From contig CAZSEU010000004.1 of NCBI GenBank assembly GCA_964606005.1, forward strand, positions 1 to 51,377: a DNA stretch of 51,377 nucleotides. Reading direction: 5' to 3'. The translations under genes and the position numbers were made by a program. Below are positions 1-17,728 of this stretch, one piece after another. The DNA is from an uncultured Staphylococcaceae bacterium (lineage in GTDB: Bacteria; Bacillota_I; Bacilli_A; RFN20; CAG-826). The number at the start of each line of letters is the position of its first letter. Within the stretch, counting starts at the first letter, position 1. The notes under the pieces are model-generated. The model was given only the letters and a program-made list of their open reading frames with translations. It was not told where the DNA came from and did not search any database.

Positions 1-97
1 TTTTTTATTAATAATTTAATAATTGGTGTGTTAAAATGACTTTGATTTGGGCTTTTTATAGAAAATAAGCTCGTGTCGATTATGGAGGTAAGAAATT

Positions 98-1780
98 ATG
101 TCAACAAAAGCGTTTTATCCGATTAACGAAATTGGAAAAGGGAAACCCGGTTTTTCCAAAACAAGAAGCATCATCGAAGCTGCTTTTTATGGAAATAACG
201 TCGTTAAAATTAACTCACTCAAAGAAGCTTATCTATTAGCAAAAAATTCTCCAGGCACAGTCGTCACTGATATGCCAGTATTCGGAGCAGAAAAACTCGG
301 TCTCGATAGAGACACTAAAGTTTTGCTCTTTAATGATGGTGCTATTACTGGTCGTTATGCCGCGGCGAGAAGAATTCAAGGCCAACCTGGTGTTAATGCC
401 GATGAATTAGACAAGTTATTAATGGAAGCGATTTACTTTACTCGCTTCAAAAAGTTATATCACGCTGAAGCATACATCGGTTTAGATCCAGAATTTATGA
501 TCAAAGCCCACTTGTTAATACCAGAAGGCTTCGAAATGGTTGCCTATAACTGGTTGCTAAACTTCCAATATATTAATGATGAATATTTAAAGATGTACCA
601 AAAGAGTAAGCCAATCGGTAACGAACCAGATATCTATATCCTCTCCGACCCATCTTGGACTGGTACTGATAGAACCGATATTTGTGAAGGCAAAACTTTG
701 GCGTACTTCTCTACTGAAACAAACTGCGCTGCTATCTTGGGTATGAGATATTTCGGCGAACACAAGAAGGGTACTTTAACCATTGCTTGGGCAATTGCCA
801 ATAGAAATGGTTATGCTTCTTGCCATGGTGGCCAAAAAGAATTCATCCTTAAAGATGATAAGAAATTCGTCGCCTCTGTTTATGGTTTATCAGGCAGTGG
901 CAAATCAACCATTACCCACGCTAAGCATGATGGCAAATATCCTGGCATCAAGGTTTTACACGACGACGCATTCATTATCAACGATGAAACATGTTCGTCA
1001 ATTGCTTTAGAGCCAACTTATTTTGATAAAACTCAAGACTATCCAACCGATAGCCCAGATAATAAATTTTTAGTGACTGTTCAAAACTGCTCTGCAACTA
1101 GAGATAGCGAAGGCAGAGTTGTATTAGTTACAGACGACATCAGAAACGGCAATGGTCGTGCGATTAAATCCAAACTTTGGAGCCCAAACCGCGTCGATAA
1201 AATCGAAGCACCAGTTAACGCCATTTTCTGGATAATGAAAGATCCAACCATTCCTCCAATCGTCAAATTAAAAGGTGCGTCTTTAGCCGCCGTCATGGGT
1301 GCAACTTTAGCCACCAAACGTAGTTCTGCTGAAAGATTAGCACCTGGCGTCGACCCTAACGCTTTAGTCGTCGAACCATATGCTAACCCATTTAGAACTT
1401 ATCCTTTAACCAATGACTACTTAAAGTTCAAAAAGTTAGTGGCTGAAAAGAATGTCGATTGCTACATCATCAATACTGGTGATTTCATGGGTAAAAAGAT
1501 TAAAAAAGAAGACACTCTCGGCGTTATTGAAGCCGTTGTTGATGGCACTGCAAAATTCGAAAAATGGGGTCCTTTCTCTGATATCGAAATCTTACCTTGG
1601 GATGGTTTTGTACCAAACTTACAGGACAAAGAATACGTCGGCCAACTTAAAGCACGTATGCTTGATAGAGCCAACTTTGTCAAATCTAGAGAAACGGAGA
1701 GAGGCGGTTACGACAAGTTACCAGCTGATGCACTTGAAGCTATTGAAAAAGTCGTTAAAGAAGCCCACATCTTAGAATAA
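98..1780 (+). CDS. pckA: Phosphoenolpyruvate carboxykinase (ATP-dependent)
   Basis: 560-aa ORF with GGAGG SD at 84-88. It has the kinase-1a P-loop GLSGSGKST and ATP-PEPCK-like sequence throughout. Its stop lies 1 nt before the next ATG. Confidence 0.9.
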   Translation: MSTKAFYPINEIGKGKPGFSKTRSIIEAAFYGNNVVKINSLKEAYLLAKNSPGTVVTDMPVFGAEKLGLDRDTKVLLFNDGAITGRYAAARRIQGQPGVNADELDKLLMEAIYFTRFKKLYHAEAYIGLDPEFMIKAHLLIPEGFEMVAYNWLLNFQYINDEYLKMYQKSKPIGNEPDIYILSDPSWTGTDRTDICEGKTLAYFSTETNCAAILGMRYFGEHKKGTLTIAWAIANRNGYASCHGGQKEFILKDDKKFVASVYGLSGSGKSTITHAKHDGKYPGIKVLHDDAFIINDETCSSIALEPTYFDKTQDYPTDSPDNKFLVTVQNCSATRDSEGRVVLVTDDIRNGNGRAIKSKLWSPNRVDKIEAPVNAIFWIMKDPTIPPIVKLKGASLAAVMGATLATKRSSAERLAPGVDPNALVVEPYANPFRTYPLTNDYLKFKKLVAEKNVDCYIINTGDFMGKKIKKEDTLGVIEAVVDGTAKFEKWGPFSDIEILPWDGFVPNLQDKEYVGQLKARMLDRANFVKSRETERGGYDKLPADALEAIEKVVKEAHILE

Positions 1781-1781
1781 T

Positions 1782-3152
1782 ATGGGAGTCAAAGTAGTAG
1801 AAACGGGCCTAAGAGATGGCCATCAATCCTTATTCGCGACCAGAATGAACACCGAAGAAGTGCTCAGCGCGTTAAAGGAATTAGACCAAGTTGGGTATCA
1901 CGCTCTTGAAATATGGGGCGGTGCAACTTTTGACGCATGCTTACGTTTCTTAAACGAAGACCCTTGGGACAGATTACGTCAAGCAAGAAAAGTTTGTAAG
2001 AAAACAAAATTACAAATGTTATTACGTGGACAAAATCTTCTCGGCTATCGTCACTATGCTGATGATGTGGTTGAAAAGTTCGTCCAAAAATCTATTAAAA
2101 ACGGTATTGATATTGTCCGTTTATTTGATGCGCTTAACGATTTACGCAACTTAGAAGCTGCCGTTAAAGCAGTTAAAAAATATCGCGGTGAATGCCAAAT
2201 CGCATTGAGTTATACAACTTCTCCAGTCCACACAATCGAATACTATGTTGATTTAGCAAAACAAATCGAAAAAATGGGCGCGGACAGTATTTGTATCAAA
2301 GATATGGCCGGCGTTTTACTTCCAATGGCTGCTTTTGAATTAGTTAGCGCTTTGAAGAAAAACACGAAATTACCGATTGAAGTCCATAGTCATTGTACCG
2401 GTGGTCTTTGTGAAATGACTTATTTAAAAGCCATTGAAGCAGGCGCCGATATCGTCGACTGTGCGATTTCTCCTTTAAGTGGTGGCACTTCACAATCATG
2501 TACTGAATCATTGAACTTTGCCCTTCAAGGCACGCAATATGATCCAAAATTAAACGTGGAAATGTTAGATGCTGCTGCTGAAAAATTAGAAAAAGTTAAA
2601 GCAAAATATGTCGCCAATGGTTTATTGAGTCCTAAAGTCATGGGTGTCAATCCAAACATTGTGAAATATCAAGTACCTGGAGGGATGCTATCTAACTTAA
2701 TCAGTCAATTAAAACAACAAGATGCGTCTGATCGCTTGAACGAAGTTTTATCGGAAGTACCAAATGTCCGTAAGGATTTAGGTTATCCTCCACTCGTTAC
2801 CCCGATGTCACAAATCGTCGGCACACAAGCGGTTTTGAATGTCCTCTCAGGTGAGAGATATAAAATTGTTCCTAAAGAAATCAACGAGTATCTCCATGGA
2901 AAATATGGCGCTTCACCAGCGCCAGTTAATGAAGAAGTGCGCGCAAAAATTATTGGCAACGATCCAGTTATTACCCATCGTCCAGCCGATGATTTAAAAC
3001 CTGAATTTGATGGCTTGAAAAAACAATATCAAGATATCGCTAAGAGCGATGAAGATGTTTTATCAATCGCTTTATTTGGCGATGTTGCGATTAAGTTTAT
3101 TAAGCAAAGAAACGAGGACGCGATTCCGGAAGTTGTTAAGGTCGAGGCGTAA
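1782..3152 (+). CDS. oadA: Oxaloacetate decarboxylase alpha-type carboxyltransferase subunit (HMGL-like / PYC_OADA type), without a fused biotinyl domain
   Basis: 456 aa. The N-terminal ETGLRDGHQS motif is typical of pyruvate/oxaloacetate carboxyltransferases (5S/OadA/PycB). The protein ends before any AMKM/AMKL biotinylation motif. Confidence 0.8.
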   Translation: MGVKVVETGLRDGHQSLFATRMNTEEVLSALKELDQVGYHALEIWGGATFDACLRFLNEDPWDRLRQARKVCKKTKLQMLLRGQNLLGYRHYADDVVEKFVQKSIKNGIDIVRLFDALNDLRNLEAAVKAVKKYRGECQIALSYTTSPVHTIEYYVDLAKQIEKMGADSICIKDMAGVLLPMAAFELVSALKKNTKLPIEVHSHCTGGLCEMTYLKAIEAGADIVDCAISPLSGGTSQSCTESLNFALQGTQYDPKLNVEMLDAAAEKLEKVKAKYVANGLLSPKVMGVNPNIVKYQVPGGMLSNLISQLKQQDASDRLNEVLSEVPNVRKDLGYPPLVTPMSQIVGTQAVLNVLSGERYKIVPKEINEYLHGKYGASPAPVNEEVRAKIIGNDPVITHRPADDLKPEFDGLKKQYQDIAKSDEDVLSIALFGDVAIKFIKQRNEDAIPEVVKVEA

Positions 3153-3154
3153 TT

Positions 3155-3454
3155 ATGGTTTTAGCAATCTGGAAAAACTGGGAAGCAATGACAGTTGGCG
3201 AGGCTCTATTAGTAGCGCTCATCGCCATGATCATTGTTTTCTCCTCCTTGTTAATTATCATTTTTATCACTTGGGTAATGCAAAAGGGCATGGAAAAAAT
3301 TGATGCTTCAACCAACATTTTACCTCGTGAAGAAAACAAGATTTTAAGTGAAGATGAAAAAGCAGTGGTGGCATCAATTGTGGCTACACTCGAATTACAT
3401 CGCGAAACCGGAAAAGACGTACGCATTGTCTCAATTAAGAGAATAGAGGACTAA
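3155..3454 (+). CDS. OadG-like small membrane (gamma) subunit of Na+-translocating decarboxylase
   Basis: 99 aa with a single N-terminal TM helix (ALLVALIAMIIVFSSLLIIIFITWV). The acidic tail with EDEKAVVASIVATL resembles OadG/MmdD-type subunits. It sits between the alpha and biotin-carrier genes. Confidence 0.55.
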   Translation: MVLAIWKNWEAMTVGEALLVALIAMIIVFSSLLIIIFITWVMQKGMEKIDASTNILPREENKILSEDEKAVVASIVATLELHRETGKDVRIVSIKRIED

Positions 3455-3457
3455 AAT

Positions 3458-3802
3458 ATGAAAATTTATAAAATTAAAGTTAATGGCAAATCCTACCGCG
3501 TGGAGCTTGAAACAATCGAACAAATTTCCACTGCACCAGTAGAAGAAAAGAAAAAAGAAGAATCTAAAAAAATCGTGAGCAACGAGGGTGGCAAACAAGT
3601 CGTTTCTCCAATTCAAGGTCAAGTCGTAAACATTAAAGTCAAAGTTGGTAATAAGGTGAAAAAAGGCGATGTACTTCTCATCGTTGAAGCAATGAAACTC
3701 GAAAACGAAATCGTCTCCACTTTTGACGGAGAGGTTACACAAATTTTGGTTACAAAAGGCCAAAATGTTAAAGCTAACGAACCTGTCGTCGTTATTGATT
3801 AA
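3458..3802 (+). CDS. Free-standing biotin carboxyl carrier protein (biotinyl/lipoyl domain)
   Basis: 114 aa. The C-terminal biotinyl domain has the motif VEAMKLENEI (AMK biotin-lysine). A K/E-rich linker (EEKKKEESKK) lies upstream. SD AGAGGA precedes the ATG. Confidence 0.8.
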   Translation: MKIYKIKVNGKSYRVELETIEQISTAPVEEKKKEESKKIVSNEGGKQVVSPIQGQVVNIKVKVGNKVKKGDVLLIVEAMKLENEIVSTFDGEVTQILVTKGQNVKANEPVVVID

Positions 3803-3813
3803 CGGACGTATTT

Positions 3814-5241
3814 ATGGGTAAATTTTGGGAAATAATTGTCGCTTTTATGCAGGATTCGGGCATCGCCGGTTTTTTTGCCGACGGTGGTTGGCGCAACCTC
3901 ATCATGATTTTGATTGCCCTCGTCCTCTTATTCCTCGCGATTAAAAAAGACTTTGAACCTTATCTACTTTTGCCAATCGCTTTCGGGATGTTGCTCGTCA
4001 ACCTCCCATTCGTAGCTAGTGAAGTGTTCATCAAAGGCTCAACCGCTTATAATTCCATTACTTTAGCGGCTAATGCCGGAATTACTTCTTCGCAAAGCGA
4101 TTTCATTTTTGAACAATTCGCGGTATTTGCTGGTCAACTCGGATTCACTATCACCGATGGTCAAGCAACCACCGCACAACTACACCAACTCGTCATGTTG
4201 CCTGATTTCCAAACCGCCATGCAAAATCAGCTTGGCCTTAATGCGGATATGACCAAGGCTATCGTGAGCGAAGTTGAACATTTATACAATTACGATTATT
4301 CAGGCATTTTTGGTTACTTATATTACGGAGTTAAATGGGGTATTTATCCTTGTTTAATTTTCTTATGTATCGGTGCGACTACTGACTTTGGACCATTAAT
4401 CGCTAATAAGAAAACAATGTTGCTCGGCGCTGCTGCCCAACTCGGTATTTTTATTACTTTTGTTGGTGCAATCGCTATAGGAACTAACGGTTTGGGTTGG
4501 ACACAATTCGACGCTAGAATCGCTTCTTCTATTGGCATCATCGGTGGCGCTGACGGGCCAACTGCTATCTTGGTTACTTCTAAGCTAGCTCCTGAATACT
4601 TATCATCTATCGCCGTTGTTGCTTACTCATATATGGCGTTAGTACCAGTTATTCAGCCACCAATCATTAGAGCGTTAACCACAAAAAAAGAACGTCTTAT
4701 TAAGATGGAAACTCTTCGTGAAGTTTCTAAAACTGAAAAGATTATGTTCCCAATTGCGGTGACCATTATTACTGTTTTAATCGTTCCTAGTGCAGGCGCC
4801 TTAATCGGTTGCTTAATGCTTGGTAACTTAGTTAAAGAAAGTGGCGTCGTACCAAAAATTACCGAAACACTTTCCAATTCGTTGCTCTATATTGTCACTA
4901 TTTTATTAGGCGTTTGTGTTGGTTGTACCGCTGATGCGGCCACCTTCTTGACACTCGATACTATTATTATCTTTGTTCTTGGCATTCTTGCCTTCTCAGT
5001 AGCGACTGCGGGAGGTGTCTTGAGTGGCAAACTCATGTGCTATTTAACAAAGGGCAAAGTCAATCCAATGATTGGTGCGGCTGGCGTTTCCGCTGTTCCA
5101 ATGGCAGCACGTGTTGTCCACAAAGAAGGCGTCAGAGAAGATCCAACAAACTTCTTGCTCATGCACGCAATGGGTCCTAACGTTGCTGGTGTTATCGGCT
5201 CCGCCATAGCTGCCGGCGTGTTATTGCTCTTATTCCTTTAA
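3814..5241 (+). CDS. oadB: Na+-translocating decarboxylase beta subunit (OadB/GcdB/MmdB family)
   Basis: 475-aa polytopic membrane protein with family-typical blocks DFGPLIANKKTMLLGAAAQLGIF, IGIIGGADGPTAI, AYSYMALVPVIQPPI and MHAMGPNVAGVIGSA. Confidence 0.85.
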   Translation: MGKFWEIIVAFMQDSGIAGFFADGGWRNLIMILIALVLLFLAIKKDFEPYLLLPIAFGMLLVNLPFVASEVFIKGSTAYNSITLAANAGITSSQSDFIFEQFAVFAGQLGFTITDGQATTAQLHQLVMLPDFQTAMQNQLGLNADMTKAIVSEVEHLYNYDYSGIFGYLYYGVKWGIYPCLIFLCIGATTDFGPLIANKKTMLLGAAAQLGIFITFVGAIAIGTNGLGWTQFDARIASSIGIIGGADGPTAILVTSKLAPEYLSSIAVVAYSYMALVPVIQPPIIRALTTKKERLIKMETLREVSKTEKIMFPIAVTIITVLIVPSAGALIGCLMLGNLVKESGVVPKITETLSNSLLYIVTILLGVCVGCTADAATFLTLDTIIIFVLGILAFSVATAGGVLSGKLMCYLTKGKVNPMIGAAGVSAVPMAARVVHKEGVREDPTNFLLMHAMGPNVAGVIGSAIAAGVLLLLFL

Positions 5242-5258
5242 TATTTATTAACAATAAT

Positions 5259-5293
5259 AAAAGACGGGTTTGCTTATATGCGCCCGTCTTTTT
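5259..5293 (+). terminator. Rho-independent terminator ending the pckA-oad operon
   Basis: A 10-bp stem (AAAAGACGGG 5259-5268 / CCCGTCTTTT 5283-5292), whose four outer A-T pairs use the first Ts of the downstream T-run, with a 14-nt loop. Confidence 0.7.
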
Positions 5294-5298
5294 ATAAT
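5270..5298 (+). promoter_or_regulatory. Putative sigma-70 promoter of birA embedded in the terminator
   Basis: TTGCTT (5270-5275), a 17-nt spacer, then TATAAT (5293-5298). The birA ATG at 5304 is 5 nt after the -10 box and no SD is present. Confidence 0.35.
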
Positions 5299-5303
5299 GT
5301 GGT

Positions 5304-6020
5304 ATGTACTATAGTTGCTTACATTTTCCCGAGATTGATTCGACCAACAATTATTTGAAAAATAGTTATACCTTATTAGATAATTTCACCTTTGTTTCTA
5401 CTGATTACCAAAGCAAAGGCAAAGGTAGAGAAGCACGTTCTTGGATTAGTAATATGGGAGAAAATCTCATGTTTTCGCTTTTAATTAAAGAAGAGAAATT
5501 ATTAGCAAAAGCCCCCTTCTTTTCTTTTTATATGGCAGTAGAAATAGCCAACTTTTTAATAAAAAGTGATATTAATAATGTCAGTATAAAATGGCCGAAT
5601 GACATTTATGTAAACAATAAAAAAATATGCGGCATTCTTTTAGAAAGTCAATTACCTAATTATTTAGTTGTGGGTGTAGGAATAAATGTTAATCAAAAAG
5701 AGTTTCCTACGGATTTAAGAAAGCCCGCTACTTCAATGTCGTTAGAAAAAAGGAAAACGTTCGACTTAGATATATTAAAAAATCAACTCTATGAACAAAT
5801 AATAAAAAACTTCCTAGATATAAATCACGATCGTTATCTTGAGTTTGTAAAGCAACATAACTACTTATTAAATAAAAAAGTAAAAACAAATTTTGCCGGC
5901 CAAGACTATATTGGCGAAGTGGTAGGAATAGATGAAAACTTCTCTCTTCAAGTGAGAATTGAAAATCTCTTATTGCATATAGAAAGTGGGGAAATAACCA
6001 TTTATGAAAATACTAAATAA
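5304..6020 (+). CDS. birA: Biotin-[acetyl-CoA-carboxylase] ligase (group I, no HTH domain)
   Basis: 238 aa with the N-terminal EIDSTNNYLK and the biotin/ATP-binding loop KGKGREARSW (GRGRxGRxW-type). Confidence 0.8.
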   Translation: MYYSCLHFPEIDSTNNYLKNSYTLLDNFTFVSTDYQSKGKGREARSWISNMGENLMFSLLIKEEKLLAKAPFFSFYMAVEIANFLIKSDINNVSIKWPNDIYVNNKKICGILLESQLPNYLVVGVGINVNQKEFPTDLRKPATSMSLEKRKTFDLDILKNQLYEQIIKNFLDINHDRYLEFVKQHNYLLNKKVKTNFAGQDYIGEVVGIDENFSLQVRIENLLLHIESGEITIYENTK

Positions 6021-6669
6021 AGACATTCGCGCGGTCATTTTTGATATGGATGGCACCCTGATAGATTCAACCGGTATTTGGCACGCAATTGATGAAGCGT
6101 TTTTTGCAAGAAGAAACATGACCATTCCGGACGACTACGCACAAAAAATTGTTCACTTAGGTTTAAAACAAGCCGCAATTTATACCAAAGAAACGTACGG
6201 CATTAAAGATGAACCAGACCAAATCATGGCGGAATGGCACGATATGTCGCGACAAATGTATCACCATCAAGTCCCTTTAAAAGACGATGCTTTAACTTTG
6301 TTGAATTTATTAAAAAGTCGCGGTGTAAAAATGGGTATTGCGACGGCTAATGATGAGCATCTTTATCTTCCTTGTTTGAAAAGATTAGGTATTGAAGACT
6401 ACTTTGACTTTGTCGCTGATGTAAATTTAGTTAAAGAAGGCAAGCAAAGTGGAAAGATATACCTATTTCTCGCGGATAAACTCGGTTTTAAGCCCGAAAA
6501 CATTATGGTGCTTGAAGATATGCCTACTTGCATCAAAACAGCCCATGAACACGGTTTTTTAACAATTGCCGTTGCTGATAATGCTTCCAAAGCTTTTGAT
6601 GACGAAAAAAGATCCAATTCGGATCTTTATATCGATGGCTTCGAACAGTTATTAGCAATTTTAAAGTAA
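6004..6669 (+). CDS. HAD-superfamily hydrolase (beta-phosphoglucomutase/phosphatase-like, subfamily IA)
   Basis: 221 aa. Motif I is FDMDGTLIDS and motif IV is LEDMPTCI. It overlaps the birA 3' end by 17 nt. Confidence 0.75.
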   Translation: MKILNKDIRAVIFDMDGTLIDSTGIWHAIDEAFFARRNMTIPDDYAQKIVHLGLKQAAIYTKETYGIKDEPDQIMAEWHDMSRQMYHHQVPLKDDALTLLNLLKSRGVKMGIATANDEHLYLPCLKRLGIEDYFDFVADVNLVKEGKQSGKIYLFLADKLGFKPENIMVLEDMPTCIKTAHEHGFLTIAVADNASKAFDDEKRSNSDLYIDGFEQLLAILK

Positions 6670-7659
6670 GAATACGTTCGCCTCTTTGAAGGCTTCAATA
6701 TCTTCTTTAGACCAATATGAAGCTTGAACCTCACCGATGTGAATCTTTTTGAGTAAGTACATACATAAGCGAGATTGACCAATTCCCCCACCGATTGAAA
6801 GAGGCAATTCATCATTTAAAATAGCTTGGTGATATGGAAGTTCTAATTTATACTCTTCGCCCCGAGCCTTAAGTTGATTGATTAAGGATTGTTTGTTAAC
6901 TCTAATGCCCATTGAAGAAAGTTCAAAAGCAATTTGAAGTGGTGCGTACCACAAAATAATATCACCGTTTAACTCCCAATCATCGTAGTCAGCCGCGCGT
7001 CCATCGTGCGCTAAACCATCACCGAGAGGACCGCCGATTTTCATTAAGAAAACAGCGCCACATTTTTTTGCGATAAGATTTTCTCTTTCTTTGCGATCAA
7101 CGTCAGGATATAAAGCTTCTAATTCATTCGTGGTAATAAACGTAATTTTTTTTGGAAAACCATTTTTCAATATTGGATATTCCTTAATCAGTAATTCATA
7201 TGTTTGTATAAAAACTCGATAAATAGCTTCAACGATGCTTTTTAAAGTGGCAACAGTTCTTTCTTGAGGTTTTAAACTTTTTTCCCAGTCCCATTGATCA
7301 ACATACAAAGAATGTAAATTATCTAATTCTTCAAAACGTCTGACCGCGTTCATATCGGTATATAAACCAGTAATTTGGTATTTTGCTAATGCATAGCGTT
7401 TCCATTTTGCTAAAGATTGAACAATTTCCAATTCTTTTTGGTTCTCATTCACAACAAAAGAGACGGCTTTTTCATAGCCATTTAAATTATCGTTTAATCC
7501 GGTGCTTGGTTCGACAAAAAGTGGAGCGGATACGCGAGTTAAATTAAGCTCTTTTGCTAATAAGTCTTCAAATGTGTCTTTAATTAACTTAATTGCTTTT
7601 TGCGTATCTAAAACGTTGAGTAAGCTCTCATATTGGGTGGGAATAATATTGTTTTTCAT
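6661..7659 (-). CDS. asnA: Aspartate-ammonia ligase (asparagine synthetase A)
   Basis: 332 aa with close AsnA-type blocks SLAKWKR, VDQWDWE, LNGDIILW, FELSSMGIRV and GGGIGQSRL. Confidence 0.9.
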   Translation of the reverse strand: MKNNIIPTQYESLLNVLDTQKAIKLIKDTFEDLLAKELNLTRVSAPLFVEPSTGLNDNLNGYEKAVSFVVNENQKELEIVQSLAKWKRYALAKYQITGLYTDMNAVRRFEELDNLHSLYVDQWDWEKSLKPQERTVATLKSIVEAIYRVFIQTYELLIKEYPILKNGFPKKITFITTNELEALYPDVDRKERENLIAKKCGAVFLMKIGGPLGDGLAHDGRAADYDDWELNGDIILWYAPLQIAFELSSMGIRVNKQSLINQLKARGEEYKLELPYHQAILNDELPLSIGGGIGQSRLCMYLLKKIHIGEVQASYWSKEDIEAFKEANVFLL

Positions 7660-15043: not shown

Positions 15044-17680
15044 TTATTTTCTAGGGTTTTTAATGTTGGCTTGAGCGGCGGCTAATCTAGCAACTGGCAC
15101 ACGGAATGGTGAGCAGGATACGTAGTCTAAACCGACTTTGTGATAGAATTCGATGGATTTGGCATCGCCACCAGTTTCACCACAGACACCAATGTGGAGT
15201 TCTGGGCGAGCGGAGCGACCTAAGTCAACGGCTAATTTCACTAATTTGCCAACACCGTTTTGATCCAAGGTTTTGAATGGATCTTCTTCAAAGATTTTTG
15301 TCTTGTAATAAGCTGGCAAGAATACACCGGCATCATCACGAGAGAAACCAAAGGTCATTTGTGTTAAGTCATTAGTACCGAAAGAGAAGAATTCGGCGTG
15401 TTTTGCAATTTCATCAGCCAATAAAGCAGCACGTGGGATTTCGATCATTGTACCAACTTCATATTCCATTTCTAAGCCAGCATCTTTGATGAGCTTATCA
15501 GCGGTTTCAACGATGATGTTCTTAACAAATTTGAGCTCTTTTTCTTCTAAAATTAATGGCACCATGATTTCTGGTTTGACCTTAATACCAAGTTTTTTGG
15601 AAACATTGATGGCCGCTTGAACAATCGCGGTGGTTTGCATTTTGCAAATTTCAGGATATGTGACGGCTAAACGGCAACCACGATGGCCCATCATTGGGTT
15701 AGCTTCGTGAAGCTCTTCAATGCGGTCATGAATTGCATCGGCAGTAATGCCTAAAGCTACTGCTAATTCTTCAATCGCACCTTCTTCTTGTGGTAAGAAT
15801 TCGTGTAACGGTGGGTCCAATAAACGCACAGTCACGCTATAAGGAGCGGTAGTTTCATACAAAGCCTCGAAGTCGTCTTGTTGCATTGGAAGAATTTCTG
15901 CCAAGGCCTTTTCACGAGCTTCGGTTGTTTGTGCAAGAATCATTTTTCTCATAGAGAAGATTCTATCTTTTGCAAAGAACATGTGTTCAGTACGGCATAA
16001 GCCAATACCTTCGGCACCAAATTCTTTGGCTTGTTTGGCATCTCTTGGAGTGTCGGCGTTTGTTCTAACTTTTAAGGCTCTAAATTGGTCAACCCAACCC
16101 ATTAAACGACCGAAGTAACCGGATGTTAAGTCTGGTTCAACTGTCTTAATAGAACCTTCATAAATCTTTCCGGTGCTACCATCTAAAGAAATGACGTCAT
16201 TTTCACCATAGACTTTGCCACCAACAGTAAGGGTGCGTTCTTCTTCGTCAATAACGGCAGTGGAACAACCACAAACGCAACATTTGCCCATACCACGGGC
16301 AACGACAGCGGCATGAGAAGTCATACCACCACGAGTGGTAAGAATGCCTTGAGCGGCGACCATGCCAACGATATCTTCTGGGGAAGTTTCGGATCTGACT
16401 AAGATAACTTTTTCACCGGCTAAATGACGTTTTTCAGCTTCTTCAGCAGTAAACGCAAGTTTGCCTGTAGCAGCGCCTGGGCCAGCTGGTAAACCAACGG
16501 CAAGAGGTTCGAGTTTGGCTAATGCGTCTTTATCAAATTCTGGTAAGAGTAATTTATCGAAGCTGAATGGATCGATGCGGGAAACAGCTTCTTTTTCATT
16601 GATTAAGCCTTCATCGACTAAATCACATGCAATTTTTAATGCGGCTGCTGGAGTTCTTTTACCATTACGAGTTTGTAAGAAATATAATTTTTCGTCTTCA
16701 ACGGTGAATTCCATATCTTGCATATCGCGATAGTGTTCTTCCATTAAATGGATGGTTTTGACGAATTGTTCGTAGACCTTTGGCATACGAGTATTTAATT
16801 CTTCGATATGTAGTGGAGTACGGATACCTGCGACTACGTCTTCTCCTTGAGCGTTTGGCAAATACTCAGCTGAAATGGCTCTATCACCTGTACCTGGGTC
16901 ACGTGAGAATGCAACACCTGTACCTGAAGTTTCGCCTTTATTACCGAACACCATTGATTGGACGTTAACGGCGGTTCCCCATGAGTATGGGATGTTGTTC
17001 ATCATACGATAAACGTTAGCTCTTTCGTTGTCCCAGCTTCTGAATACTGCGGCAACAGCTTCTAATAATTGAACTTTTGGATCAGTTGGGAATTCTTCAC
17101 CAAAGACTTTTTTGTAGTAATCTTTGTAACGAGCGACTAAGTCTCTTAATTGATCGGTAGTCACTTCTGTATCTAACTTATAACCGTTGTCTTTTTTTAA
17201 TTTTTCAAGCATTTTGTCCATGGCATCTCTTGGATGACCCTTGGCGATGTTGGTGAACATTAAGATAAAACGACGATAGCTGTCTAAAGCGAAACGTTCA
17301 TTGCCAGTTTCGTTAGCTAGAGCATTAGCAGTGACATCATTTAAACCTAAGTTTAAGATTGTGTCCATCATACCAGGCATACTAACTCTAGCGCCAGAAC
17401 GGACTGAGACTAATAATGGATTTTTATCTCCACCAAAGTTTTTGCCAGTTTGTTTTTCAATTTTATTAATATTTGCAAAAATTTGGTTAATGAGAAAATC
17501 GGGGAGTTTTTTGCCACTTTCATAATAAAGTGCGCAAGCTTCTGTTGAGATTGTGAAACCTTCTGGAACAGGAACACCTATGTGGACCATTTCTGCTAAA
17601 CCAGCACCTTTTCCACCTAGTAATTCTTTACCTAGCCCATAAGCTTCATCGAAAGCATATACATATTTCTTTTCTGCCAT
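15044..17680 (-). CDS. ppdK: Pyruvate, phosphate dikinase
   Basis: PPDK blocks include the phospho-His loop GGMTSHAAVVARGMGK and the C-terminal PEP-utilising domain (CGE). The start is placed at Met14 of the ORF-track protein (MAEKKYVYAFDE) because AGGAGG lies 7 nt upstream. Confidence 0.93.
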   Translation of the reverse strand: MAEKKYVYAFDEAYGLGKELLGGKGAGLAEMVHIGVPVPEGFTISTEACALYYESGKKLPDFLINQIFANINKIEKQTGKNFGGDKNPLLVSVRSGARVSMPGMMDTILNLGLNDVTANALANETGNERFALDSYRRFILMFTNIAKGHPRDAMDKMLEKLKKDNGYKLDTEVTTDQLRDLVARYKDYYKKVFGEEFPTDPKVQLLEAVAAVFRSWDNERANVYRMMNNIPYSWGTAVNVQSMVFGNKGETSGTGVAFSRDPGTGDRAISAEYLPNAQGEDVVAGIRTPLHIEELNTRMPKVYEQFVKTIHLMEEHYRDMQDMEFTVEDEKLYFLQTRNGKRTPAAALKIACDLVDEGLINEKEAVSRIDPFSFDKLLLPEFDKDALAKLEPLAVGLPAGPGAATGKLAFTAEEAEKRHLAGEKVILVRSETSPEDIVGMVAAQGILTTRGGMTSHAAVVARGMGKCCVCGCSTAVIDEEERTLTVGGKVYGENDVISLDGSTGKIYEGSIKTVEPDLTSGYFGRLMGWVDQFRALKVRTNADTPRDAKQAKEFGAEGIGLCRTEHMFFAKDRIFSMRKMILAQTTEAREKALAEILPMQQDDFEALYETTAPYSVTVRLLDPPLHEFLPQEEGAIEELAVALGITADAIHDRIEELHEANPMMGHRGCRLAVTYPEICKMQTTAIVQAAINVSKKLGIKVKPEIMVPLILEEKELKFVKNIIVETADKLIKDAGLEMEYEVGTMIEIPRAALLADEIAKHAEFFSFGTNDLTQMTFGFSRDDAGVFLPAYYKTKIFEEDPFKTLDQNGVGKLVKLAVDLGRSARPELHIGVCGETGGDAKSIEFYHKVGLDYVSCSPFRVPVARLAAAQANIKNPRK

Positions 17681-17728
17681 AAAATACCTCCTTGCAGGCT
17701 TATTGTGAGACTTGCTCACAGCGTTTCA

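What the first reader, a model, noticed from the sequence alone, without database searches (positions are those of the whole stretch)
98..5241. ATP-PEP carboxykinase translationally coupled to a Na+-pumping oxaloacetate decarboxylase: a possible energy-conserving bypass of pyruvate kinase
SEEN: pckA, oadA, oadG, a BCCP gene and oadB are packed with gaps of 1, 2, 3 and 11 nt. A strong terminator closes the set at 5259. birA, which would biotinylate the carrier, follows directly. ESTABLISHED: PEPCK(ATP) interconverts PEP + CO2 + ADP and oxaloacetate + ATP. Membrane OAD decarboxylates oxaloacetate to pyruvate while exporting Na+, and is classically linked to citrate lyase in citrate fermentation. 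INFERENCE: no citrate lyase or carrier gene is present in this operon. The coupling instead suggests PEP -> OAA -> pyruvate, with CO2 recycled. The net reaction equals pyruvate kinase but adds a sodium-motive force. The window also encodes PPDK (15044-17680), a second non-pyruvate-kinase link between PEP and pyruvate.
Basis: partly seen in the sequence, partly recalled or inferred. Interest (0 to 1): 0.6.

Follow-up and report, generated by a model that had tools for sequence, protein, structure and literature searches.

The report
PEPCK fused to sodium-pumping oxaloacetate decarboxylase operon
A small-genome gut bacterium that has no detectable pyruvate kinase keeps a PEP carboxykinase gene in one operon with a sodium-pumping oxaloacetate decarboxylase, and related genomes gain and lose the two together, so PEP is probably turned into pyruvate by a route that yields ATP and also pumps sodium; the route has been proposed before, but this genetic wiring has not been described in the papers I could search.

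Summary
Five ORFs (98-5241) sit 1, 2, 3 and 11 nt apart, a strong terminator follows, then birA.

The "pckA" is the Clostridia-type PEPCK clade, about 18-25% identical to E. coli Pck. It keeps the PEPCK fold and all phosphoryl-transfer and OAA/PEP-binding residues, but its adenine pocket differs.

In 151 genomes of the same order:
- PEPCK and OAD-beta occur together in 49, alone in 1 each, and in neither in 100.
- About 34 have them clustered.
- Three unrelated PEPCK lineages have been recruited to the same oad-birA cluster: two Clostridia-type clades upstream of oadA, and an E. coli-type (68-69% identical) downstream of birA.

This genome shows no pyruvate kinase, PTS enzyme I, malic enzyme, MDH/LDH, citrate lyase, PEP carboxylase or biotin carboxylase. 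It does have PPDK, PPi-PFK, PFOR and an F1Fo c subunit with the two-carboxylate Na+ motif.

Best reading (about 0.6): a PEP to OAA to pyruvate shunt parallel to PPDK, giving ATP plus Na+ export.

Caveats:
- The module's distribution is unrelated to pyk loss.
- PPDK alone suffices in relatives.
- There are no expression or enzyme data.
- The pathway idea is already published.

The scan noted the same linkage before on other DNA.

The parts
8..37 (+). promoter-like site: TTAATA, 18 nt, TAAAAT, with TG before the -10 box
   Evidence: sequence. This is a consensus match only. The contig starts at base 1, so the upstream part may be cut off.
42..79 (+). 5' leader hairpin opening with the conserved box TTGATTTGG
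   Evidence: The fold is -11.1 kcal/mol. The same box plus a hairpin with a different but still complementary distal arm occurs in about 10 relatives. Its role is unknown.
84..89 (+). Shine-Dalgarno GGAGGT, 8 nt before the pckL ATG
98..1780 (+). pckL: Clostridia-type PEP carboxykinase, 560 aa
   Evidence: Family and structure: Pfam PF01293, 81.5 bits. AlphaFold model pLDDT 88.8; the best PDB matches are ATP-PEPCKs, TM about 0.7, E 1e-30.

Active site: E. coli Pck residues R65, Y207, K212, K213, H232, S250, K254, D268, D269, K288 and R333 are conserved. R449 and I452 are not.

Relatives: 71-77% identical to the PEPCKs of Lachnospiraceae, Oscillospiraceae and Fusobacterium.
1782..3152 (+). oadA: oxaloacetate/pyruvate carboxyltransferase (alpha), 456 aa, without association and biotin domains
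   Evidence: NF008985, 745 bits against a cut-off of 718; Pfam HMGL-like plus PYC_OADA
3155..3454 (+). oadG-like membrane anchor, 99 aa, one N-terminal TM helix
   Evidence: Pfam OAD_gamma, 29.4 bits against 27. NCBIfam TIGR01195 is below its cut-off.
3458..3802 (+). stand-alone biotin carrier, 114 aa, EAMKL biotinylation motif
   Evidence: Biotin_lipoyl, 66 bits. Residues 2-113 align to the C-terminal 120 residues of full-length OadA models.
3814..5241 (+). oadB: Na+-translocating carboxybiotin decarboxylase (beta), 475 aa
   Evidence: TIGR01109, 463 bits against a cut-off of 191. E 1.8e-108 to Salmonella OadB 6IVA, with the GGADGPT, GSAGVSAVPMAAR and HAMGPNVAG blocks kept. It has extra residues in the loop around residues 70-160.
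5259..5295 (+). intrinsic terminator
   Evidence: -18.7 kcal/mol, z -4.4, followed by a U run
5304..6020 (+). birA: class I biotin-protein ligase without an HTH
   Evidence: TIGR00121, 138 bits against 83. It follows oadB in 12 of the 16 configuration-A relatives fetched and in all 8 configuration-B loci. No biotin carboxylase is found in the genome, so the carrier at 3458-3802 is the only evident client.
15044..17719 (-). pyruvate phosphate dikinase. Together with the pckL-oad route it is one of the only two PEP-to-pyruvate routes detected.
   Evidence: TIGR01828, 1338 bits against a cut-off of 843. It is the only PEP-utilizers_C hit in the genome. ORF.

Best explanation
The five genes form one operon that encodes a two-step shunt.

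Step 1: the PEP carboxykinase carboxylates glycolytic PEP to oxaloacetate and makes ATP, or possibly another NTP.

Step 2: the split, Firmicute-type oxaloacetate decarboxylase converts oxaloacetate to pyruvate. OadA is the carboxyltransferase. A free biotin carrier is charged by the adjacent BirA. An OadG-like protein is the anchor and OadB is the pump. The carboxyl group passes through carboxybiotin and its release drives Na+ out of the cell.

The net reaction is that of pyruvate kinase plus sodium export, with CO2 recycled. The shunt runs in parallel with PPDK in a PPi-dependent glycolysis. The sodium gradient feeds a Na+-type F1Fo ATPase/synthase and Na+-coupled transport.

Shown: gene content, gene order, conserved catalytic residues, co-occurrence and clustering across genomes.

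Inferred: single transcript, direction of flux, nucleotide used, Na+ stoichiometry.
For: 1. The five genes are tightly packed behind one promoter-like site and end in one strong terminator.

2. All 16 relatives fetched that carry this PEPCK type have pckL-oadA-(oadG)-carrier-oadB. birA follows in 12 of them.

3. In 151 genomes of the order, PEPCK and OAD-beta co-occur in 49, occur alone in 1 each, and are both missing in 100.

4. Three PEPCK lineages are attached to the same oad cluster:
- two Clostridia-type clades about 55% identical to each other, placed 5' of oadA;
- an E. coli-type enzyme, 68-69% identical to E. coli Pck, placed 3' of birA;
- in one genome (G116), the E. coli type placed upstream of oadA.
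The recurrent partner is therefore PEPCK activity itself.

5. Only the sequence PEP to OAA to pyruvate needs both enzymes.

6. In the own genome I found no pyk, PTS EI, malic enzyme, Ldh/Mdh, CitF, PEPC, biotin carboxylase or GTP-PEPCK. I did find PPDK, PPi-PFK and PFOR.

7. With this query, 13 of 18 configuration-A genomes lack an AspC-like transaminase, so aspartate is not the general feed.

8. The F1Fo c subunit has E20, E53, T54, T55 and Y58. This matches the two-carboxylate Na+ site of F. nucleatum.

9. Thermodynamics from PMC8100219: PEPCK runs near equilibrium, OAD has about -34 kJ/mol, and up to 2 Na+ are moved per turnover.
Against: - There are no transcript, enzyme or flux data.
- The module is unrelated to pyk status: 5 of 49 module genomes lack pyk, against 11 of 102 without the module. 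It is therefore not a replacement for pyruvate kinase.
- PPDK is in 138 of 151 genomes and must suffice alone in the pyk-less relatives without the module. The shunt is thus not required here.
- The Na+ motif of the c subunit is order-wide, in OAD-less genomes too, so it does not discriminate.
- This genome has an AspC-like transaminase next to an NADP-GDH, which could supply or drain oxaloacetate.
- The genome is 92% complete, so absences are provisional.
- The adenine-pocket residues of pckL differ from those of ATP-PEPCKs.
- The genomes are related, so the co-occurrence statistics overstate independence.
Confidence: 0.6

Rival explanations
1. Oxaloacetate-utilisation operon for aspartate or asparagine catabolism. 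Aspartate is transaminated to oxaloacetate by the AspC-like enzyme together with NADP-GDH. OAD takes most of the oxaloacetate to pyruvate for energy and Na+ export. PEPCK takes a share to PEP for gluconeogenesis. The two enzymes would then be branches from one pool, not consecutive steps.
For: An AspC-like aminotransferase and NADP-GDH are adjacent on contig C34. asnA lies next to the operon and near it in two relatives. The closest orthologues of the transaminase (49-59% identical) all lie in module-bearing genomes of one genus. An earlier scan note describes an aminotransferase-PEPCK pair beside a decarboxylase operon (untested).
Against: With this query, 13 of 18 configuration-A genomes have no such transaminase at E 1e-40. 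PPDK, present nearly everywhere, already allows pyruvate to PEP, so PEPCK would be redundant. That would not predict the near-perfect co-occurrence of PEPCK and OAD. No aspartate transporter or transaminase sits in the cluster in any of the roughly 30 loci examined.
Confidence: 0.15
2. PEPCK is mainly anaplerotic, making oxaloacetate for aspartate and asparagine synthesis. OAD acts only as an overflow valve or oxaloacetate-homeostasis device, and little glycolytic flux passes through the pair.
For: PckL is the only oxaloacetate-forming enzyme detected apart from the transaminase. AsnA, AspC-like and GDH genes are present. 100 of 151 relatives manage without the module, so it is accessory.
Against: Anaplerosis alone does not need a four-subunit membrane pump plus a dedicated biotin ligase. 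It does not explain why PEPCK is almost never kept without OAD (1 of 50). It also does not explain why three PEPCK lineages were each placed in the oad cluster.
Confidence: 0.1
3. The pair runs in reverse, as a gluconeogenic route. The sodium gradient drives OAD backwards to carboxylate pyruvate, and PEPCK then makes PEP from oxaloacetate and ATP.
For: No biotin carboxylase or pyruvate carboxylase is present. PEPCK is classically gluconeogenic (PMC8100219).
Against: OAD is strongly exergonic in the forward direction, about -34 kJ/mol. PPDK already provides pyruvate to PEP in nearly every genome of the order. These are sugar-fermenting, reduced genomes with PPi-PFK and PFOR.
Confidence: 0.05
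4. PckL is not a PEP carboxykinase in the usual sense. It might use a different phosphoryl donor or acceptor, or a different substrate, and the gene order might reflect something other than an oxaloacetate hand-over.
For: It is only 17-25% identical to characterised PEPCKs. It scores below all NCBIfam cut-offs. Its adenine-pocket residues R449 and I452 are replaced, and the RSPKDK and DDEH motifs are altered. I found no solved structure or biochemical paper for this clade.
Against: All residues for Mn2+/Mg2+, phosphoryl transfer and OAA/PEP/CO2 binding are conserved across the clade. It has the full-length PEPCK fold. In sister genomes a bona fide E. coli-type PckA occupies the same cluster, which argues that PEPCK activity is what is selected.
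Confidence: 0.05

Closest known systems
Na+-translocating oxaloacetate decarboxylase OadGAB of Klebsiella, Salmonella and Vibrio (EC 7.2.4.2; structure 6IVA/6IWW)
   Same: It has the same carboxyltransferase, gamma anchor, biotin carrier and beta pump. OadB aligns over its full length to Salmonella OadB at E 1.8e-108.
   Different: The classical enzyme sits with citrate lyase and the citrate carrier and serves citrate or tartrate fermentation (PMC8100219). Here no CitF is found, the biotin carrier is a separate gene, and the operon starts with a PEPCK.
Split Firmicute-type OAD of Enterococcus faecalis (OadA, OadB, OadD biotin carrier, OadH; Repizo et al. 2013, cited in PMC8100219)
   Same: The carboxyltransferase lacks a biotin domain and the biotin carrier protein is free-standing.
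   Different: The E. faecalis genes belong to the cit cluster. I did not compare OadH with the OadG-like protein here. No PEPCK is linked there, as far as the review states.
Malate shunt of Clostridium thermocellum (PEPCK, MDH, malic enzyme) running beside PPDK in a pyruvate-kinase-less glycolysis (Olson et al. 2016, via PMC8100219)
   Same: The organism has no pyruvate kinase, has PPi-PFK and PPDK, and has a second PEP-to-pyruvate route that starts with PEPCK.
   Different: MDH and malic enzyme are not found here. Oxaloacetate would be decarboxylated directly by a sodium pump, so the by-product is an ion gradient instead of NADH-to-NADPH transhydrogenation.
PEPCK to oxaloacetate to Na+-OAD scheme proposed for Ca. 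Epulopiscium viviparus (PMC10756260), and the 'PEPCK and OAADC' bypass listed by Carere et al. 2012 (PMC3561251)
   Same: The chemistry and the energetic idea are the same, including a Na+-specific F1Fo ATP synthase in Epulopiscium.
   Different: Those proposals rest on gene presence and expression, and Epulopiscium also has citrate lyase. In 76 Clostridia and Fusobacteria loci carrying this PEPCK type, 75 have no oad gene within about 7 kb and one has an oadA-like fragment about 6 kb away. Here the two are fused into one operon and co-inherited.
ATP-dependent PEP carboxykinase of E. coli (PckA, 1AQ2/1OS1)
   Same: It shares the fold, P-loop, metal ligands and OAA/PEP/CO2-binding residues.
   Different: It is about 18% identical in structure-based alignments, the adenine pocket is changed, and NCBIfam cut-offs are not reached.

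Membership tests
PEP carboxykinase, ATP type (Pfam PF01293; EC 4.1.1.49) | Family profile matched above its curated threshold | tested here: inconclusive
   Pfam gives 81.5 bits against a gathering score of 26.5, which is met. All NCBIfam pckA models fall far below their cut-offs; the best is 127 against 369.
PEP carboxykinase, ATP type (Pfam PF01293; EC 4.1.1.49) | Kinase-1a P-loop and metal ligands (E. coli S250, K254, T255, K213, H232, D268, D269) | tested here: met
   The motifs GLSGSGKS, GEHKKG, SCHGG and HDDA are present. All these positions are conserved in 13 of 15 clade representatives; T255 is replaced by S.
PEP carboxykinase, ATP type (Pfam PF01293; EC 4.1.1.49) | OAA/PEP/CO2-binding residues (R65, Y207, R333, K288) | tested here: met
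   R86, Y218, R354 and K311 of PckL align to them and are conserved across the clade.
PEP carboxykinase, ATP type (Pfam PF01293; EC 4.1.1.49) | Adenine-binding pocket (R449, I452, T455) | tested here: not met
   R449 is replaced by K, and the position is variable in the clade. I452 is replaced by K. Only T455 is kept. The nucleotide used is therefore open.
PEP carboxykinase, ATP type (Pfam PF01293; EC 4.1.1.49) | PEPCK fold | tested here: met
   The AlphaFold model has pLDDT 88.8. The top 35 PDB matches are ATP-PEPCKs (TM 0.66-0.78, E about 1e-30), and GTP-PEPCKs come next.
PEP carboxykinase, ATP type (Pfam PF01293; EC 4.1.1.49) | Catalytic activity: PEP + ADP + CO2 = OAA + ATP | not testable with these tools
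   This needs the purified enzyme.
Na+-translocating oxaloacetate decarboxylase (EC 7.2.4.2) | OadA-type carboxyltransferase | tested here: met
   NF008985 equivalog, 745 bits against a cut-off of 718.
Na+-translocating oxaloacetate decarboxylase (EC 7.2.4.2) | Beta subunit of the Na+-decarboxylase family | tested here: met
   TIGR01109, 463 bits against 191; Pfam OAD_beta, 495 bits; full-length alignment to 6IVA.
Na+-translocating oxaloacetate decarboxylase (EC 7.2.4.2) | Gamma anchor subunit | tested here: inconclusive
   Pfam OAD_gamma gives 29.4 against 27. TIGR01195 gives 20 against 36. The protein has a single N-terminal TM helix.
Na+-translocating oxaloacetate decarboxylase (EC 7.2.4.2) | Biotin carrier with a biotinylatable lysine, and a biotin ligase | tested here: met
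   There is a separate 114-aa carrier with EAMKL, and birA is adjacent.
Na+-translocating oxaloacetate decarboxylase (EC 7.2.4.2) | Na+ export coupled to decarboxylation | not testable with these tools
   This needs proteoliposome or vesicle assays.
Citrate-fermentation OAD context (citCDEF/citS with oad) | Citrate lyase encoded with or near the oad genes | tested here: not met
   No CitF match in the genome. None of the upstream neighbours in 10 relatives is a citrate or malate gene.
Malate shunt (PEPCK, MDH, malic enzyme) | MDH and malic enzyme present | tested here: not met
   No PF00056 or PF00390 match in the genome, which is 92% complete.
Na+-coupled F1Fo with two-carboxylate c-ring site (F. 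nucleatum type) | Residues equivalent to E32, E65, S/T66, T67 and Y70, with 33-residue spacing between the two carboxylates | tested here: met
   E20, E53, T54, T55 and Y58 in the 71-aa c subunit on contig C9. The motif is present in 38 of the 40 relatives checked, with or without OAD.

The most novel reading that the evidence does not exclude
The PEPCK-OAD cluster is a portable energy-conservation cassette. It would turn the last glycolytic step into an ion-pumping step in organisms that have no respiratory chain, Rnf or malate shunt. Roughly 2 Na+ per PEP would be exported and, through the Na+ F1Fo, up to about one extra ATP per hexose would be gained. The PEPCK might work against the OadA carboxyltransferase as a metabolon, so that unstable oxaloacetate never equilibrates with the cytoplasm. 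Repeated in-situ replacement of the PEPCK by three unrelated lineages would then mark strong selection for the coupled activity.
Probability: 0.15. Interest if true: 0.75.

Novelty: new variant of a known kind. Interest (0 to 1): 0.55.

Why it matters
A 2020 review of the PEP-pyruvate-oxaloacetate node states that it is unclear whether Na+-pumping OAD has roles outside citrate and tartrate fermentation. It also says that only a few sugar fermenters without pyruvate kinase are known (PMC8100219).

This operon and its phyletic pattern bear on both points.
- They give a clear, testable case in which OAD is fed by PEPCK, not by citrate lyase.
- The case lies in a widespread, uncultured group of small-genome gut and rumen Bacilli.
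- Glycolysis in this group looks PPi-dependent (PPi-PFK, PPDK), and its membrane energetics look sodium-based.

If the shunt carries real flux, it raises the ATP yield of fermentation in organisms with no electron-transport options. It would also help explain how such reduced genomes energise their membranes. The three-fold recruitment of different PEPCKs to one cluster is a clean example of non-orthologous displacement under constant functional demand.

Tried and rejected
1. I tested whether the module replaces pyruvate kinase. Across 151 genomes, pyk is missing in 5 of 49 module genomes and in 11 of 102 others. There is no association, so I dropped "replacement" in favour of "parallel route".

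2. I tested whether a Na+-type c subunit tracks OAD. The two-carboxylate motif is present in 20 of 20 OAD genomes and in 18 of 20 OAD-less genomes checked, with conservative variants in the rest. It is consistent with a sodium economy but does not discriminate.

3. I tested whether an AspC-like transaminase travels with the module. It is absent from 13 of 18 configuration-A genomes and present in many module-less genomes. It is not a general component.

4. At first I suspected that the divergent PEPCK was an OAD-specific paralogue. I rejected this. It is the ordinary PEPCK of Lachnospiraceae, Oscillospiraceae and Fusobacteria. Among 76 such loci, 75 have no oad gene within about 7 kb and one has an oadA-like fragment about 6 kb away.

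5. A cre-like operator search upstream of pckL gave one weak hit in one relative. I did not pursue it.

6. Literature searches for a pck-oad operon, or for OAD in RF39-type bacteria, found nothing.

I therefore obtained no RNA evidence for a single transcript, and read laying was not used.

8. Complex prediction was not run. I do not claim that PckL binds OadA, and three unrelated PEPCKs in the same cluster argue against a specific interface.

9. A membrane pyrophosphatase, as a further sodium-cycle element, was not found.

Full report
**What is in the window.**
The window is an entire contig (C4) of a 1.05-Mb, 44-contig genome estimated at 91.9% complete. Five + strand ORFs lie at 98-1780, 1782-3152, 3155-3454, 3458-3802 and 3814-5241, separated by 1, 2, 3 and 11 nt. 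Upstream are a promoter-like site with an extended -10 box (8-37) and a GGAGGT Shine-Dalgarno 8 nt before the first ATG. Downstream is a hairpin of -18.7 kcal/mol (z -4.4) followed by a U run at 5259-5295. birA follows at 5304.

The products are:
- a PEPCK_ATP-family protein;
- an OadA-type carboxyltransferase without a biotin domain (NF008985 above its cut-off);
- an OadG-like single-helix protein;
- a free biotin carrier with EAMKL;
- OadB (TIGR01109 above its cut-off; E 1.8e-108 to the solved Salmonella OadB).

**What the PEPCK is.**
The first gene is not a canonical pckA. It scores 81.5 bits on Pfam and lies far below all NCBIfam pckA cut-offs. It matches PDB PEPCK sequences only at E 7e-6. 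It belongs to a large clade that is 71-77% identical in Lachnospiraceae, Oscillospiraceae, Eubacteriaceae and Fusobacterium. It is therefore the ordinary "Clostridia-type" PEPCK.

An alignment with E. coli Pck shows conservation of R65, Y207, K212, K213, H232, S250, K254, D268, D269, K288 and R333. These are the metal, phosphoryl-transfer and OAA/PEP/CO2 positions. The adenine-pocket residues R449 and I452 are replaced. An AlphaFold model (pLDDT 88.8) matches ATP-PEPCK structures over the full length (TM about 0.7, E about 1e-30), with GTP-PEPCKs close behind. I conclude that it does PEPCK chemistry. Which nucleotide it uses is open.

**Comparative genomics, the main result.**
I used a fixed sample of 151 genomes of the same order. 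The Clostridia-type gene occurs in 18 of them. All 16 loci I fetched have pckL-oadA-(oadG)-carrier-oadB, with short intergenic gaps, and birA follows in 12.

Upstream neighbours in ten of these loci are unrelated: a pseudouridine synthase, MatE, MnmA, GMP synthase, an ABC-F protein and so on. Several lie on the opposite strand, so the unit starts at the PEPCK.

A tree splits the 18 into two well-supported clades about 55% identical to each other. One of them is nested among Clostridia and Fusobacteria sequences (quick tree).

Another set of genomes carries oadA-(oadG)-carrier-oadB-birA followed by a pckA that is 68-69% identical to E. coli Pck (10 loci confirmed; 15 by coordinates). One genome has the E. 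coli-type gene about 0.8 kb upstream of oadA.

Overall, 49 genomes have both PEPCK and OAD-beta. One has only PEPCK. One has only OAD-beta, and that genome is 59% complete. The other 100 have neither. The genomes are related, so the nominal Fisher p value (1e-37) overstates independence. Even so, the pattern spans five families and three PEPCK lineages.

By contrast, among 76 Clostridia and Fusobacteria loci with the same PEPCK type, 75 have no oad gene within about 7 kb and one has an oadA-like fragment about 6 kb away. The fusion is a trait of this small-genome Bacilli order. Close relatives are labelled Bacilli bacterium, Erysipelotrichaceae bacterium, Ca. Enteromonas and Ca. Onthovivens, from rumen and gut.

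**Metabolic context of this genome.**
Not found:
- pyruvate kinase
- a second PEP-utilising enzyme, so no PTS enzyme I
- malic enzyme
- Ldh/Mdh
- CitF
- PEP carboxylase
- biotin carboxylase
- GTP-PEPCK
- membrane pyrophosphatase

Found:
- PPDK
- a PPi-dependent phosphofructokinase next to the atp operon
- a soluble pyrophosphatase
- a NifJ-type PFOR
- an AspC-like transaminase adjacent to an NADP-GDH

PEP can therefore reach pyruvate only through PPDK or through PEPCK plus OAD. The only oxaloacetate sources detected are PckL and possibly transamination of aspartate. The biotin carrier in the operon is the only evident client of BirA.

The F1Fo c subunit has E20, E53, T54, T55 and Y58 with the 33-residue spacing of the two-carboxylate Na+ site solved for F. 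nucleatum. That fits a sodium economy. However, the motif is present in relatives with and without OAD, so it is not specific evidence.

**Mechanism and its rivals.**
Only the sequence PEP to oxaloacetate to pyruvate needs both enzymes. Anaplerosis needs only PEPCK. Aspartate or citrate breakdown needs only OAD. PPDK already covers pyruvate to PEP. The near-perfect co-inheritance and the threefold recruitment of PEPCKs therefore favour a consecutive two-step shunt.

The energetics allow it. PEPCK runs near equilibrium. OAD releases about 34 kJ/mol and can move up to two Na+ (PMC8100219). The layout parallels Clostridium thermocellum, where PPDK and a PEPCK-started malate shunt share the flux in a pyruvate-kinase-less glycolysis. 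Here a sodium pump would stand in place of MDH plus malic enzyme.

I give this reading about 0.6. The rivals are:
- an oxaloacetate branch point for aspartate catabolism (0.15). It is weakened because 13 of 18 configuration-A genomes lack the transaminase with my query;
- anaplerosis with OAD as an overflow valve (0.1);
- reverse, gluconeogenic operation (0.05);
- a non-PEPCK activity for PckL (0.05).

**What tempers the claim.**
The module is not a substitute for pyruvate kinase. 44 of 49 module genomes keep pyk, and pyk loss is equally frequent with and without the module. PPDK is present in 138 of 151 genomes, including all pyk-less ones, so it can evidently carry the step alone.

I have no biochemistry, and the absences rest on a 92%-complete draft.

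**Relation to what is known.**
The enzymes are known kinds. A split OAD with a free biotin carrier is described for Enterococcus faecalis (via PMC8100219). A PEPCK plus OAD bypass of pyruvate kinase is listed by Carere et al. 2012 (PMC3561251). PEPCK-derived oxaloacetate feeding a Na+-OAD and a Na+ F1Fo has been proposed for Ca. Epulopiscium (PMC10756260).

I found no paper describing PEPCK and oad genes in one operon, their co-inheritance, or the PEPCK displacement. Earlier notes of this scan record the same linkage on other DNA: the same order of genes, the oadB-birA-pckA form, a divergent pckA, and a GTP-PEPCK beside an OAD operon in an alphaproteobacterium. I confirmed the first two forms independently and did not test the others.

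I class the finding as a new variant of a known kind, of moderate to good interest. It turns an open question about the role of Na+-OAD outside citrate fermentation into a directly testable one.

Noticed in passing
window 38-79; relatives L014, L016, L017, L019, L020, L025, L043, L121, L125: Three to seven nt after the -10 box of the operon promoter lies a conserved box TTGATTT(C/T)GG. It opens a hairpin whose distal arm differs between genomes but stays complementary. Single-sequence folds are -6 to -12 kcal/mol, z -1.3 to -3.5. No U tract follows, so it is not a terminator. It could be a 5' stabiliser or an operator. It is present before pckL (both clades) and before oadA in two configuration-B genomes, and absent in one family.
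   Followed up: partly
G000 contig C9 (L038:8671-8886, minus strand) and 40 relatives (L128-L167): The F1Fo c subunit carries the two-carboxylate Na+-binding motif (E...E-T/S-T...Y) of Fusobacterium nucleatum. It is present in essentially the whole order, with or without OAD, which suggests sodium-based membrane energetics as an order-wide trait.
   Followed up: yes
G000 contig C9 (L038:10031-11236 and 2862-3425, minus strand): A PPi-dependent phosphofructokinase (NF010675 above its cut-off) lies directly upstream of the atp operon, and a soluble inorganic pyrophosphatase directly downstream. With PPDK this points to a PPi-dependent glycolysis. The source of PPi is unclear.
   Followed up: partly
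order sample: 16 of 151 genomes show no pyruvate kinase; 13 of these are at least 90% complete. All 16 have PPDK. Sugar fermenters without pyruvate kinase are said to be rare, so this order may add many.
   Followed up: partly
G000 contig C34 (L039:1990-3219 and 540-1886, minus strand): An AspC/TyrB-like aminotransferase sits next to an NADP-specific glutamate dehydrogenase. The closest orthologues of the transaminase (49-59% identical) are all in module-bearing genomes of one genus. This may be shared ancestry and not a functional link.
   Followed up: partly
window 3814-5241 (OadB residues about 70-160): OadB is 475 aa against 433 in Salmonella. The extra residues lie in the poorly aligned loop after the first transmembrane helix. 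Relatives vary between about 395 and 480 aa in the same region.
   Followed up: no
window 5304-6669: birA (5304-6020) overlaps a HAD-family phosphatase gene (6004-6669) by 17 nt, so the two are probably co-translated. asnA lies convergent at 6661-7659.
   Followed up: no
L014 (G008:C26) and window 15044-17719: PPDK lies within about 2-10 kb of the pck-oad operon both in the window and in a relative from another family. This may be conserved synteny of the PEP-pyruvate node genes.
   Followed up: no
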